Shown: positions 16,632 to 18,741 of the stretch, piece by piece | Layout: every line of letters starts with the position of its first letter | How positions within the stretch are numbered: the first letter of the stretch is position 1 | From: a virus | Lineage: Duplodnaviria > Caudoviricetes | IMG/VR virus record: IMGVR_UViG_2772190736_000001 | Coordinates: 26,634-90,633 of that record | Length of the DNA: 64,000 bases | Direction: 5' to 3' (one strand) | The notes under the pieces: generated by a model | What the model saw: only the letters and a program-made list of their open reading frames with translations | Told to the model about the DNA's origin: nothing | Database searches by the model: none | Program-made: the position numbers and the translations under genes

Positions 16632-16912
16632 CAGGCGTGGGCTCCTGTCGTGCACGGTTCGCACAAGCAAGCGGCAGCCGCGGCAGCCTTGGTGTGTCGC
16701 CATATGGCGTACAGCTTGATGGCGGCCTCATCGGCTCCTCCACCCTCTACCTTCTCGCCCAAGGCGATGCCGACCGCCCCCTTCAAGCCGATCAGTTCGC
16801 CTCGAATCTGTTCGCCTTGGAGGAAGGTGAGGTTCGCAGCCTGGTTGTCGAAGTGGCTCTGCCGTCGGTGGTACTCGCGCAGGAGCGCCCGGGCGGTAGG
16901 CGGGATACGCAT
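16631..16912 (-). CDS. Hypothetical phage protein
   Basis: 93 aa, TGATG coupling on both sides. Confidence 0.6.
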   Translation of the reverse strand: MRIPPTARALLREYHRRQSHFDNQAANLTFLQGEQIRGELIGLKGAVGIALGEKVEGGGADEAAIKLYAIWRHTKAAAAAACLCEPCTTGAHA

Positions 16913-18741
16913 CAGAAGGGTCCTCCGAAGGCGTAGTCGGGGCGGGAGATGATGTCGGGCCGGGGCCGGAACTCTCTGCGGCAGTTCGGGTGCGCGACGG
17001 GGTGGGCGAGCGCGTCCTGGACGGTGCGCAGGGTGCCGGCGGCCCGGTCGTCATCGTCGTGCGAGGTCCAGCCGCAATTCGCTACGATGATTCCATCAAC
17101 GGTGAAGGTGCCACCGCTTGTTGTCGCGTCGTAGACCCATCCCTCGTAATGCTCTACGTCGACTGACACCACCTGCGAAAGGGTGAACCTGTGGGGAAGC
17201 TGGACAGTCGCAAGGACAGCGTCGTCGTCAGCTGTGAGACCTGTGGCACGTCGTTCCAGCCGCTCTACAACAGCGCGGCCCGGTTCTGCGGGCAGGCATG
17301 CTCGAGGTCCGGCAGTATCCGGCTCCCCCGTGAGGAGATACGCCGCCTCTACGTCGAAGACGGACGCCAGCCGGGCGAGATCGCTGATGTCCTCGGCCTT
17401 CGCGTGTCCCAGGTCTATACAGCCGTCAAGCGCATGGGTATCTCCCGAAGCCGCTCTGAAGCTCTGTCGCTGTGGCATGCGAACGCCGGGGCCGGCGCCA
17501 GGGAAGAACGTGCCAAGGCAGCCCACGACGCCAAGCGCGGACGCCCCTCCAAGCCCGAGAGCTTCGTCAGAAGCGCTATCACCAAGCAGTCCATCGCTTC
17601 GATCATCGGACCGCATGAGGTCAGATTTGCCGAGATGCTGCGAGCCAGAGGCGTCGGATACTCCCAGCAAACTCCGCTGGACGTCTACAACATCGACTTC
17701 ACCCTGACCGAATACCCCGTCGCCGTGGAGATCGTCACCGGTGGCGGTTCGAACGGATACTGGCAGCGCCTTCACAAGCGACGCATACACGTCCTCCACC
17801 ATTGGCACCTGTTTGAGATCAAGTTCCGCAAGGGCCGCCGAGTCCTCACAGAGCCCGTCGTGGACAAGCTGATCGCCTTCGCGGAGAAGGTGAGCGCGGA
17901 CCCAACCCCGTACGGTCAGTACGGGATGGTTTGGCCCAACGGTGAAGACATCCGTACCAACGCTCGTACGCCGCGCTATGCGGTAGGCCGGCCCTGAGAA
18001 CCAGGCTCTGACCATCTGCTTCAGGTGTCCATGCGGAAGGAACGCGCCTCCAGGCATCACGCACTCGGGCCCGTCGCGGACTTCGACCCAGTCGGCGCCG
18101 ACTTCGTCCGCGCAGGTGCGGAGGAAGCCGGTGTTCGCGGTGGTGTAGGTCTGCCAGGAGGTGGCCGCGCGGGCCCAGGATTCGACGGGGTGGCGGGAGG
18201 AGCCGGCGTAGATGACGGTGTCGAGCGGGTGGTCCTGGAGGAGGCGGGCGCGTCCGGGCCATGGCTGGCGGATGCGGTCGACGTGGCCGCGGGCGGCGGT
18301 CAGGGCGTCGCGGAGGAACGCGCGGGCTCGGCGTACGGCTTCACGGATCCGGCCGGTGAGGTCGGCGTAGTACTGCGCGGACAGGGTGGTGATGTGGGCC
18401 TGGTGTCGTGCGGTCCAGGACCATCGGGAGGGGCGGCCGGCGCGGTCCAGGGCGGCGAGGGCACCTTCCCGGTAGGCGATGGGCAGGTCGGTGGCGGCCC
18501 AGCGCTCGACGAGCGCGAGGGCGGCGCGGTCGAAGGCGGCGATCTGCTGCTGGAACGCCTCGCCTGCGGTACGGATCGCGGCGTAGGCGGTGCGGCCGGG
18601 CCGGATGCGGGCGAGGGCGGTGAGGAGCGTGTTCTGGGCGCGGGTGAGGATCCGCCAGGCGGCCGCGAGGGCGTCGGTGGCACCGATGATGAGGGCCAGG
18701 AGCCGGGCCCGTAGGGAGCGGCGGCGTACGGGGGTGGTCAT
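16912..18741 (-). CDS. Minor capsid (MuF-like head morphogenesis) protein interrupted by an intein
   Basis: Start MTTPVRR; extein VEVRDGPE|CGWTSHDD...HPNCRR; 609 aa precursor, 280 aa after splicing. Confidence 0.85.
   Translation of the reverse strand: MTTPVRRRSLRARLLALIIGATDALAAAWRILTRAQNTLLTALARIRPGRTAYAAIRTAGEAFQQQIAAFDRAALALVERWAATDLPIAYREGALAALDRAGRPSRWSWTARHQAHITTLSAQYYADLTGRIREAVRRARAFLRDALTAARGHVDRIRQPWPGRARLLQDHPLDTVIYAGSSRHPVESWARAATSWQTYTTANTGFLRTCADEVGADWVEVRDGPECVMPGGAFLPHGHLKQMVRAWFSGPAYRIARRTSVGTDVFTVGPNHPVLTVRGWVRAHLLREGDQLVHDGLCEDSAALAELDLKQVPMVEDVYASLVKALPVSVRTATGDDLHGDGVFGQGEVDVVDVQRSLLGVSDASGSQHLGKSDLMRSDDRSDGLLGDSASDEALGLGGASALGVVGCLGTFFPGAGPGVRMPQRQSFRAASGDTHALDGCIDLGHAKAEDISDLARLASVFDVEAAYLLTGEPDTAGPRACLPAEPGRAVVERLERRATGLTADDDAVLATVQLPHRFTLSQVVSVDVEHYEGWVYDATTSGGTFTVDGIIVANCGWTSHDDDDRAAGTLRTVQDALAHPVAHPNCRREFRPRPDIISRPDYAFGGPF
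17077..18063 (-). mobile_element. Intein (Hint domain), 329 aa
   Basis: Cys1 CVMPG, block B GPNHPVL..RGW...L..GD, block F WVYDATT, C-terminal IVAN followed by Cys+1. Confidence 0.88.
17191..17997 (+). CDS. Putative homing endonuclease (Zn finger, HTH, Vsr/DUF559-like nuclease) antisense within the intein
   Basis: CETC...CGQAC, HTH PGEIADVLGLRVSQVYT, nuclease E..FAEML...G..YSQQ....YNIDF......VAVEI; RBS-like AAAGGGTG. Confidence 0.82.
   Translation: MGKLDSRKDSVVVSCETCGTSFQPLYNSAARFCGQACSRSGSIRLPREEIRRLYVEDGRQPGEIADVLGLRVSQVYTAVKRMGISRSRSEALSLWHANAGAGAREERAKAAHDAKRGRPSKPESFVRSAITKQSIASIIGPHEVRFAEMLRARGVGYSQQTPLDVYNIDFTLTEYPVAVEIVTGGGSNGYWQRLHKRRIHVLHHWHLFEIKFRKGRRVLTEPVVDKLIAFAEKVSADPTPYGQYGMVWPNGEDIRTNARTPRYAVGRP

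What the first reader, a model, noticed from the sequence alone, without database searches (positions are those of the whole stretch)
17077..18063. Intein whose homing endonuclease is encoded on the opposite strand
Seen: a 329-aa intein in the minor capsid gene has clear splicing blocks but a featureless middle with no LAGLIDADG or HNH motif. The antisense strand holds a 268-aa ORF (17191-17997) with Zn finger, HTH and Vsr/DUF559-like nuclease motifs, fully nested and in exact codon register (offset 114 nt). About 45 C-terminal codons of the nuclease overlap intein block B, so that stretch is truly dual-coding. Inference: the nuclease invaded a mini-intein in antisense, using the stop-free shadow frame of high-GC DNA, and can be expressed independently of late genes. 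I recall alternative-frame endonucleases being reported for actinophage inteins, so novelty needs checking.
Basis: partly seen in the sequence, partly recalled or inferred. Interest (0 to 1): 0.86.

Follow-up and report, generated by a model that had tools for sequence, protein, structure and literature searches.

The report
Intein with antisense homing-endonuclease gene
A self-splicing protein insert (intein) in a head gene of a Streptomyces phage-like element carries, on the opposite DNA strand and codon against codon, a real and conserved DNA-cutting enzyme gene; this layout was already described in a 2025 preprint on actinophages, so this is a well-supported new example, not a new kind of element.

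Summary
A 329-aa intein (17077-18063, minus) interrupts a 609-aa head-module gene. A 268-aa plus-strand ORF (17191-17997) lies inside it in exact codon register.

The antisense ORF is a real gene:
- Its model has a Vsr-like nuclease domain (1cw0 Z 10.9; I-Bth0305I Z 9.1).
- The same DNA read as intein gives only Hint-fold ends (Z up to 13.0) and a 220-residue stretch at pLDDT 22-39.
- Homologues lie antisense and in the same register in 12 of 12 related loci, GC 0.39-0.70.
- Conservation follows the nuclease frame in the middle and the intein frame over block B.
- A public DNA run holds an allele about 96% identical that lacks exactly these 987 bases.

Low-GC relatives keep both frames open against odds of 1e-5 to 1e-14.

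The architecture is in print (bioRxiv 10.1101/2025.01.02.630785). This scan has also found it before on other DNA.

Possibly new here: a different host protein and insertion site, a zinc-ribbon module, and relatives in proteobacterial phages. Expression, splicing and cleavage are untested.

The parts
16912..18741 (-). Host gene: 609-aa precursor (226-aa N-extein, 329-aa intein, 54-aa C-extein, stop). It lies in the head/tail structural module.
   Evidence: Translation. PHROG 37388, unknown function, E 8e-90 over residues 1-227. Neighbours on the same strand are scaffold, decoration, major head, major tail and tape measure genes. No Pfam MuF match.
17077..18063 (-). Intein, 329 aa. Cys1, block B with His46, terminal Asn329, followed by Cys+1.
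   Evidence: Sequence. Hint fold Z 13.0-5.1 in the top 32 rows. 45% identical over 154 aa to the Rhodococcus phage REQ3 minor-capsid intein. Exactly these 987 nt are missing from an allele about 96% identical.
17851..18063 (-). N-terminal Hint lobe (intein residues 1-71), including block B at 17914-17937.
   Evidence: AlphaFold2 pLDDT 70-78 for about residues 15-71. Here the intein frame is better conserved than the nuclease frame.
17191..17850 (-). Intein 'linker' (residues 72-291): the read-through of the antisense nuclease gene, with no predicted structure of its own.
   Evidence: pLDDT 22-39. Amino-acid identity among relatives is 0.16-0.22 in this frame against 0.28 in the nuclease frame. 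tblastn gives 19-43.5 bits against 50.8-67 bits.
17077..17190 (-). C-terminal Hint lobe (intein residues 292-329, blocks F and G). The nuclease ORF does not overlap it.
   Evidence: pLDDT 73-77 for residues 291-310. The nuclease start codon at 17191 abuts it.
17191..17997 (+). Antisense homing-endonuclease gene, 268 aa, GTG start, stop at 17995-17997.
   Evidence: ORF. Homologues at 77, 72 and 55% identity start at the same position, two of them with ATG. Codon-position GC is 0.63/0.49/0.78 in this frame. 864 cluster representatives match at E<=1e-30.
17177..17183 (+). Shine-Dalgarno-like purine run, 7 nt before the GTG start.
   Evidence: Read directly from the sequence. Function is inferred only.
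17233..17301 (+). Putative zinc ribbon of the nuclease (residues 15-37, CxxC...CxxxC).
   Evidence: The model is low-confidence here.
17326..17457 (+). Helix-turn-helix DNA-binding module of the nuclease (about residues 46-89).
   Evidence: PDB repeat-HTH protein E 3.4e-8. Structural matches to HTH domains at Z 4.7-5.5. Pfam HTH_29 E 0.037, below its cutoff.
17599..17961 (+). Vsr-like nuclease domain (residues 137-257), with invariant Asp169 and Glu180.
   Evidence: 1cw0_A Z 10.9, rmsd 2.8, 113 aligned. 3hrl_A Z 9.7. 3r3p_B Z 9.1. Foldseek top hit is 1vsr, E 3.5e-3. Invariant columns.
17851..17994 (.). Truly dual-coded stretch: nuclease residues 221-268 opposite intein residues 24-71.
   Evidence: Both models are structured here. 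Nucleotide identity at nuclease codon positions 1/2/3 is 0.38/0.72/0.54, so the intein frame dominates.

Best explanation
This is a composite mobile element. A class-1-type intein sits in a head-module gene of a ZL12-like Streptomyces phage or phage-plasmid. Its homing endonuclease is not a domain of the intein but a separate gene on the opposite strand, with zinc ribbon, HTH and Vsr-like nuclease parts.

The nuclease gene occupies the space between the two Hint lobes and uses the same codon triplets (the aligned 'frame -0'). In that register, stops on either strand arise only from TTA, CTA and TCA, and each of these has synonyms. The host frame can therefore read through the nuclease gene as a structureless 220-residue linker.

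After translation the intein splices out and restores the 280-aa head protein. The nuclease is made from its own antisense message. It cuts the intein-less allele at or near the insertion point, and repair copies in the whole element.

Shown: the anatomy, both folds, conservation of the arrangement, frame-specific selection, and a presence/absence polymorphism with exact boundaries.

Inferred: splicing, antisense expression, cleavage specificity and ongoing homing.
For: Anatomy and register.

Nuclease fold: Vsr Z 10.9, DUF559-like 3hrl Z 9.7, homing endonuclease I-Bth0305I Z 9.1. Foldseek puts 1vsr, 1cw0 and 3r3p among its top five.

Intein fold: the top 32 rows are all Hint/intein domains, Z 13.0-5.1, then a drop to 3.0. 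Only about 100-114 of 329 residues align. The middle has pLDDT 22-39.

Conserved arrangement:
- tblastn of the nuclease hits 103 phage records.
- In 7 of 7 records opened, the match is antisense to the annotated head gene and is itself unannotated.
- 12 of 12 related loci share the register.

Selection by frame:
- Middle: 50.8-67 bits in the nuclease frame in 8 of 8 loci, against 19-43.5 bits in the intein frame.
- Block B region: the reverse.
- Codon-position identities switch accordingly.

Double openness is improbable in low-GC relatives: P = 8.5e-6 to 1.8e-14 in L001, L003, L007 and L024.

Mobility:
- A contig of DNA run X2 joins 17072 to 18060, skipping 987 nt with a 4-nt ambiguity, which is exactly the intein. 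Its flanks are about 96% identical.
- ZL12 has an intein-less homologue.
- The host gene occurs in 10 of 401 family genomes; the nuclease occurs in 1 of 401, the window's own.
- The intein has lower GC3 than the exteins.

Register logic is from DeRisi et al. 2019, PMC6884476 (passages).
Against: - No expression data. No RNA holder is listed, and no promoter-like site was found.
- No sequence-family model assigns the nuclease. Pfam and NCBIfam give nothing significant, and the profile match to 3r3p is only E 0.45.
- A literal EDxHD motif and an obvious equivalent of Vsr His69 are not seen in this subfamily, so catalytic competence is uncertain.
- Block B has Gly where Thr is usual, and the penultimate residue is Ala rather than His.
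- The intein alignment for folding had only 4 sequences, which by itself lowers confidence in the middle.
- The codon alignment was built on the nuclease frame, which favours that frame. One search does not share this bias.
- The presence/absence polymorphism fits homing but equally fits a precise loss.
Confidence: 0.8

Rival explanations
1. The antisense nuclease gene is real but no longer drives homing here. It would be an inactive relic, or domesticated for another use such as DNA binding or regulation, and the intein would now be inherited vertically.
For: No literal EDxHD motif or clear His69 equivalent is seen. The preprint reports that some VSR-like-HEN inteins show vertical inheritance (section 15). 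Only one copy exists in the genome.
Against: The full-length ORF is intact, with invariant Asp169 and Glu180. Close homologues at 55-77% identity keep their length and start. An allele about 96% identical lacks the intein exactly. The intein has foreign-looking GC. The preprint argues that idle antisense ORFs should soon collect stops (section 15).
Confidence: 0.12
2. The nuclease is an independent selfish gene that uses the intein only as a safe harbour. It would cut some other target, for example as a weapon against competing phages, and would not promote copying of this intein.
For: Vsr-like endonucleases also occur free-standing and in introns (Dassa et al. 2009, section 13). The family is very large: 864 representatives at E<=1e-30, contexts unknown.
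Against: Nuclease and intein co-occur in a fixed relative position and register in 12 of 12 loci, across four kinds of insertion site. 143 of 155 family proteins held carry a C-terminal motif that is the reverse reading of intein block B, against 2 of 155 in an N-terminal control (suggestive only, since the search profile contains the motif).
Confidence: 0.06
3. The plus-strand ORF is a non-coding shadow frame of GC-rich DNA, and the element is a mini-intein with a long disordered linker.
For: Long shadow ORFs are common in this window. For the window alone, P(open) is only about 0.015. No family model assigns the ORF.
Against: A confident nuclease fold. Homologues in phages with gene GC 0.36-0.51. 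Higher conservation in the plus frame. GC3 signature of the plus frame. Gene callers elsewhere predicted it.
Confidence: 0.02

Closest known systems
Inteins with an anti-sense VSR-like homing endonuclease in actinobacteriophage minor capsid proteins (Gosselin, Arsenault and Gogarten, bioRxiv 10.1101/2025.01.02.630785). Seen: abstract, sections 8 and 15, and found passages.
   Same: A full intein in a phage head gene, with the endonuclease ORF on the antisense strand between the splicing blocks. Their nuclease model matches 1CW0 at Z 10.6 over residues 144-267; here it is Z 10.9 over 137-257. The sense-frame middle has no recognisable structure. The window's intein is 45% identical over 154 aa to the REQ3 minor-capsid intein, which the preprint lists.
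   Different: - The host protein has no detectable similarity to REQ3's minor capsid protein (E 0.62) and no Pfam MuF match.
- The insertion site is GPE|CGW, not the xN|C(R/K/G)(C/S/H) site seen in 8 of the 11 loci whose site was read.
- The nuclease has a zinc ribbon where relatives have an extra HTH repeat.
- The element sits in a bacterial genome contig, not a PhagesDB phage.
- The preprint's main text mentions neither the codon register nor proteobacterial phages.
Vsr-like / EDxHD homing endonucleases. Sources: Dassa et al. 2009, PMC2677866 (abstract and section 13 read); I-Bth0305I, Taylor et al. 2011, PMC3239194 (search listing and start of abstract only).
   Same: A Vsr-type nuclease fold with a separate N-terminal DNA-binding module, carried by mobile elements of phages. 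There is a structural match to the I-Bth0305I catalytic domain (Z 9.1).
   Different: Those are free-standing genes between split-intein halves, or lie inside group I introns, on the sense strand. Here the gene is antisense inside a contiguous intein. The EDxHD motif is not literally present.
Anti-sense LAGLIDADG endonucleases in inteins (Gorbalenya 1998; Gogarten et al. 2002). Known to me only as cited in the preprint, not read.
   Same: An endonuclease encoded on the strand opposite the intein.
   Different: A different nuclease family and different hosts (Synechocystis dnaX, Chloroflexus SpoVR-like).
Ambigrammatic narnaviruses (DeRisi et al. 2019, PMC6884476; passages read).
   Same: Long forward and reverse ORFs with aligned codons. 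This is the only register in which all reverse-strand stops can be removed by synonymous changes.
   Different: They are RNA viruses and their reverse ORF has no known function. Here the reverse ORF has a recognisable fold and a likely role.

Membership tests
Intein (Hint domain, class 1 type) | N-terminal nucleophile (Cys/Ser/Thr) at intein position 1 | tested here: met
   Cys1, codon ending at 18063.
Intein (Hint domain, class 1 type) | Block B histidine (TxxH) | tested here: met
   His46 is present and invariant in the 4-sequence alignment. The usual Thr is Gly43 here, but Thr in relatives.
Intein (Hint domain, class 1 type) | C-terminal Asn followed by Cys/Ser/Thr at +1 | tested here: met
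   Asn329 then Cys. The penultimate residue is Ala rather than the common His; relatives have H, S or R there.
Intein (Hint domain, class 1 type) | Hint fold | tested here: met
   2imz_A Z 13.0 (rmsd 3.3, 112 aligned) and 4o1r_A Z 12.9 (rmsd 1.9, 107 aligned). The top 32 rows are all Hint/intein, then Z falls to 3.0. Pfam Intein_splicing is below its cutoff.
Intein (Hint domain, class 1 type) | Precise in-frame insertion absent from homologous alleles | tested here: met
   A contig of DNA run X2 skips exactly 987 nt. ZL12's homologue is 277 aa and uninterrupted at the site.
Intein (Hint domain, class 1 type) | Protein splicing activity | not testable with these tools
   Needs expression of the 609-aa precursor.
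Vsr-like / EDxHD homing endonucleases | Vsr-type nuclease fold | tested here: met
   1cw0_A Z 10.9, 3hrl_A Z 9.7, 3r3p_B Z 9.1. Model pLDDT is mostly 80-93 over residues 140-250, with dips to 67 and 76.
Vsr-like / EDxHD homing endonucleases | Conserved catalytic residues (Vsr Asp51, His69, Asp97, plus the family's invariant Glu; EDxHD motif) | tested here: inconclusive
   Asp169 and Glu180 are invariant in 8 sequences and sit in the expected strands by motif analogy. No literal EDxHD and no clear His69 equivalent was seen. No residue-level structural superposition was available.
Vsr-like / EDxHD homing endonucleases | Separate DNA-binding module N-terminal to the nuclease | tested here: met
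   HTH at about residues 39-89, plus a zinc-ribbon pattern.
Vsr-like / EDxHD homing endonucleases | Significant sequence-profile match | tested here: inconclusive
   Pfam and NCBIfam give none. The profile against PDB gives 3r3p E 0.45 and 3hrl E 1.1. One homologue is named 'very-short-patch-repair endonuclease' by its source.
Vsr-like / EDxHD homing endonucleases | Site-specific cleavage of the element-free allele | not testable with these tools
   Needs a cleavage assay.
Inteins with anti-sense VSR-like HEN (Gosselin et al. 2025 preprint) | HEN ORF on the antisense strand inside a contiguous intein of a phage gene, with an unstructured sense-frame middle | tested here: met
   The match to 1CW0 agrees with the preprint's (against the passage).
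Inteins with anti-sense VSR-like HEN (Gosselin et al. 2025 preprint) | Homology to that paper's members | tested here: inconclusive
   45% identity over 154 aa to the REQ3 minor-capsid intein, which the preprint names. Antisense nuclease homologues occur in Gordonia and Mycobacterium phages. Which phages the preprint counts as VSR-like is in supplements that I could not open.
MuF-like minor capsid protein (host gene) | Match to the Phage_Mu_F family or to known MuF proteins | tested here: inconclusive
   No Pfam hit for the precursor or for the intein-less ZL12 homologue at E<=5. BLASTP against the REQ3 minor capsid protein gives E 0.62. Only a short HPNC motif near the C-terminus resembles the motif seen at the insertion site of relatives. 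I therefore call it a head-module protein, not MuF.

The most novel reading that the evidence does not exclude
The intein and its antisense nuclease form one ancient composite that has spread as a unit through phages of Actinobacteria and Proteobacteria. The aligned 'frame -0' would then be the general rule by which a free-standing endonuclease gene can live inside an intein without breaking it. In this window the composite has switched to an unrelated head protein at a new site. The switch coincides with replacement of the nuclease's first HTH repeat by a zinc ribbon, which would be modular re-targeting of a homing endonuclease. Antisense placement would also uncouple nuclease expression from the late operon.
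Probability: 0.3. Interest if true: 0.55.

Novelty: new member of a known kind. Interest (0 to 1): 0.35.

Why it matters
- It is a clean natural case of about 800 nt read on both strands, with about 48 codons where both products are folded. Selection can be seen switching from one strand to the other along the DNA.
- These nuclease genes go unannotated. None of the 7 phage records opened lists it.
- They make head genes look oddly long, and they are a source of site-specific nucleases with modular DNA-binding parts.
- The near-identical intein-less allele and the ZL12 homologue give ready substrates for testing homing in Streptomyces.
- The kind of element is already in a preprint and has turned up repeatedly in this scan, so the surprise to a specialist is modest.

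Tried and rejected
- **Close relatives with DNA.** The pattern scans gave no close relative: viral contigs gave one zinc-ribbon-only match and then none, genome contigs gave none, and the metagenome scan gave five loci at 30-37% identity. Megablast of the gene against phages found nothing. I used frame-specific tblastn and codon-position identities on distant loci instead.
- **Expression.** No RNA holder is listed.
- **Promoters.** The sigma-70-type scan found 0 sites in the window. In the relatives L001, L003 and L007 the counts were no higher than in shuffles. So I make no statement about a promoter.
- **Family models.** Pfam, NCBIfam and PHROGs gave no significant nuclease family for the 268-aa protein. 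The only hits were weak HTH or zinc-ribbon matches to PHROGs labelled HNH endonuclease (E 8.6e-5 and 0.0025).
- **Foldseek.** Against PDB no hit reached E<=0.001. The VIA search was clearer.
- **Motif count.** The C-terminal motif count is partly circular and is given only as a hint.
- **High-GC shadow-frame origin.** Rejected, as set out in the report.
- **Host gene as MuF.** I did not adopt this label, for lack of any match.
- **Literature.** I looked for earlier print of the antisense arrangement outside the preprint, and of its presence in proteobacterial phages. Only the Gosselin preprint describes it. A Jerseyvirus paper (PMC8425127, passages) mentions an intein-containing capsid morphogenesis protein but no antisense gene. 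The library lacks many subscription papers.
Full report
**What is there**

The minus strand of 16912-18741 encodes a 609-aa protein. It lies in a run of minus-strand structural genes: scaffold, head decoration, major head, then this gene, then major tail and tape measure.

Residues 227-555 are an intein. It begins with Cys and has a block B with His46. It ends in Asn and is followed by Cys. This fixes it at 17077-18063, 987 nt.

The plus strand holds a 268-aa ORF from GTG 17191 to the stop at 17995-17997. The offset of 114 nt is a multiple of three, so both frames use the same triplets. Nuclease residue r therefore lies opposite intein residue 292-r. A purine-rich Shine-Dalgarno-like run sits 7 nt before the GTG.

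**Is the antisense ORF more than a shadow?**

In this GC-rich DNA an open antisense frame is cheap. Shadow ORFs of 184-526 aa surround the locus. Given the exteins' synonymous codon usage, the chance of no TTA, CTA or TCA in the 276 codons is about 0.015. Four other lines of evidence decide the matter.

- *Codon-position GC.* The exteins have GC3 of 0.92-0.93. Inside the overlap the minus frame drops to 0.63, and the plus frame shows the coding-like pattern 0.63/0.49/0.78.
- *Fold of the plus-strand product.* With an 8-sequence alignment, AlphaFold2 gives mean pLDDT 74.7, mostly 80-93 over residues 140-250, with dips to 67 and 76. The all-against-all structure search puts Vsr endonuclease first (1cw0_A: Z 10.9, rmsd 2.8, 113 residues). 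A DUF559-like protein follows (3hrl_A, Z 9.7), then the catalytic domain of the homing endonuclease I-Bth0305I (3r3p_B, Z 9.1). Residues 39-89 match HTH DNA-binding domains at Z about 5. Foldseek agrees on rank but only weakly on E-value.
- *Fold of the same DNA read as intein.* It gives confident structure only at the ends: about residues 15-71 at pLDDT 70-78, and 291-310 at 73-77. Residues 72-291 score 22-39 (only 4 sequences in the alignment). That model's top 32 structural matches are all intein or Hint domains (Z 13.0 to 5.1), followed by a drop to Z 3.0. Only about 100-114 residues align, even to large inteins that carry endonuclease domains.
- *Homology.* Gene callers elsewhere predicted proteins 77, 72 and 55% identical, with the same length and start position. 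A profile search finds 864 cluster representatives at E<=1e-30.

**The arrangement is conserved far beyond this genome**

tblastn of the nuclease against 50,697 phage records finds 103 records. By first word of the organism name they are Salmonella 61, Pseudomonas 14, Klebsiella 8, Gordonia 7, Vibrio 4 and others. Almost all matches lie under genes annotated as head morphogenesis or minor capsid.

I opened 7 of these records: Salmonella BPS11Q3, Gordonia Angelicage, Klebsiella RCIP0015, Rhodococcus REQ3, Pseudomonas CF74b, Vibrio PvVp04 and Mycobacterium Sejanus. In all 7 the match is antisense to the annotated gene, and no CDS is annotated for it.

Five metagenome loci were added. In 12 of 12 loci the nuclease frame and the longest host frame share the codon register. 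GC of the match ranges from 0.39 to 0.70, and two of the loci are cut by contig ends.

In the lower-GC relatives (host-gene GC 0.36-0.51) keeping both frames open is far from free. Given each host gene's own synonymous usage, P(no antisense-stop codon) is:

| Locus | Nuclease frame | Intein frame |
|---|---|---|
| L001 | 1.3e-7 | 6.7e-9 |
| L003 | 8.5e-6 | 9.8e-8 |
| L007 | 9e-13 | 1.8e-14 |
| L024 | 9.6e-10 | 1.7e-12 |

In the high-GC loci L002 and L023 the test has no power (0.12/0.096 and 0.42/0.4). In L008 and the window it reaches only about 0.01 (0.0084/0.0088 and 0.015/0.011).

The aligned register is the one in which reverse-strand stops come only from Leu and Ser codons that have synonyms. 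This was worked out for ambigrammatic narnaviruses (PMC6884476, passages).

**Which strand is under selection, and where**

Each frame was allowed to find its own best tblastn alignment against 8 loci.

- The window's middle (nuclease residues 1-200) scores 50.8-67.0 bits in the nuclease frame in 8 of 8 loci. The intein frame scores 19-43.5 bits.
- Over the part opposite the N-terminal Hint lobe the order reverses. The intein frame scores 32-45 bits in the 6 loci that cover this part. The nuclease frame scores at most 32.7.

A codon alignment of 11 sequences gives the same picture (it was aligned on the nuclease frame, which favours that frame).

| Nuclease residues | nt identity at nuclease codon positions 1/2/3 | aa identity, nuclease frame | aa identity, intein frame |
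|---|---|---|---|
| 45-135 | 0.42/0.47/0.32 | 0.28 | 0.16 |
| 136-221 | 0.42/0.53/0.40 | 0.28 | 0.22 |
| 222-252 | 0.38/0.72/0.54 | 0.29 | 0.45 |

So the conserved C-terminal nuclease motif is largely the mirror image of intein block B. About 48 codons (17851-17994) are truly dual-coded.

**Mobility**

Contigs of a public DNA run (X2) are about 96% identical to the exteins: 11 differences in 307 aligned bases. One contig joins 17072 to 18060, skipping 987 nt. The 4-nt ambiguity comes from the two Cys codons, so the gap is exactly the intein. Run X1, from the same sample, shows the same junction with a 10-nt overhang.

The closest phage record for the N-extein is Streptomyces phage/plasmid ZL12 (58.7% identity). 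Its homologue is 277 aa and uninterrupted at the corresponding site. Among 401 genomes of the family, 10 carry the host gene but only the window's genome carries the nuclease.

The intein is 45% identical over 154 aa to that of Rhodococcus phage REQ3 (E 3e-34), while the two host proteins show no similarity (E 0.62).

I read the insertion site in 11 loci: the window and 10 relatives. Eight sit before the Cys of an xN|C(R/K/G)(C/S/H) motif of MuF-like proteins. One is in a terminase-like protein, and one is elsewhere in a protease/MuF fusion. The window's is at GPE|CGW.

The element has therefore changed host proteins.

**Known or new**

A bioRxiv preprint (10.1101/2025.01.02.630785; abstract, sections 8 and 15, and passages read) reports inteins with anti-sense VSR-like homing endonucleases in actinobacteriophages. 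It states that inteins in minor capsid proteins all have non-canonical endonucleases. It matches its nuclease model to 1CW0 at Z 10.6 and finds the sense-frame middle unstructured. It proposes invasion of inteins by free-standing endonuclease genes.

[quoted passage not shown] 2009 (PMC2677866; abstract and section 13).

The preprint's main text does not mention the codon register, Streptomyces or Salmonella. My five literature searches found no other description.

This scan's own notes show the same architecture found many times on other DNA: 301 notes in at least 216 genomes hold the search words. Of the 8 shown, 7 describe it, and two of those cite the preprint.

**Verdict**

This is a new member of a known kind. 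Three features go modestly beyond what the preprint's text covers: a new host protein and site, the zinc-ribbon module, and breadth across phages of different host phyla with strand-switching selection. Expression, splicing and cleavage remain untested.

Noticed in passing
window 1-64000 (contig C27 of G000, 90,633 bp): The contig is almost the same length as the circular Streptomyces phage-plasmid ZL12 (90,435 bp). ZL12 is also the only phage in the collection (two records, GenBank and RefSeq copies) that matches the N-extein (58.7% identity). The window may be a ZL12-like phage-plasmid and not an integrated prophage.
   Followed up: partly
L008 1753-4551 (metagenome contig): The same intein-plus-antisense-nuclease composite, in the same register, sits in a 932-aa protein that looks like a terminase large subunit by eye (no family search was run). 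The element is therefore not restricted to MuF-like genes.
   Followed up: partly
L022 1809-2483 (Rhodococcus phage REQ3): REQ3's 225-aa intein starts with Ala rather than Cys, and its antisense frame keeps only the nuclease half (window residues 129-251, 41.6% identity). This may be a shortened variant of the nuclease.
   Followed up: no
window 17851-18063 against 18064-18741: GC3 falls from 0.92-0.93 in the exteins to 0.64 across the whole intein, including the parts the nuclease does not overlap. This is consistent with recent arrival from a lower-GC source.
   Followed up: partly
phage records opened: L001-L003, L022-L025: None of the 7 annotated phage records opened lists a CDS for the antisense nuclease. 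Several label the interrupted head gene 'hypothetical protein', 'NAD+--asparagine ADP-ribosyltransferase' or 'capsid maturation protease'.
   Followed up: partly
L004 2476-2595 (IMG/VR contig): The zinc-ribbon part alone (window nuclease residues 10-45) matches a viral contig at 40% identity. It also matches a PHROG labelled HNH endonuclease (E 0.0025). This suggests a DNA-binding module shared among phage nucleases.
   Followed up: no
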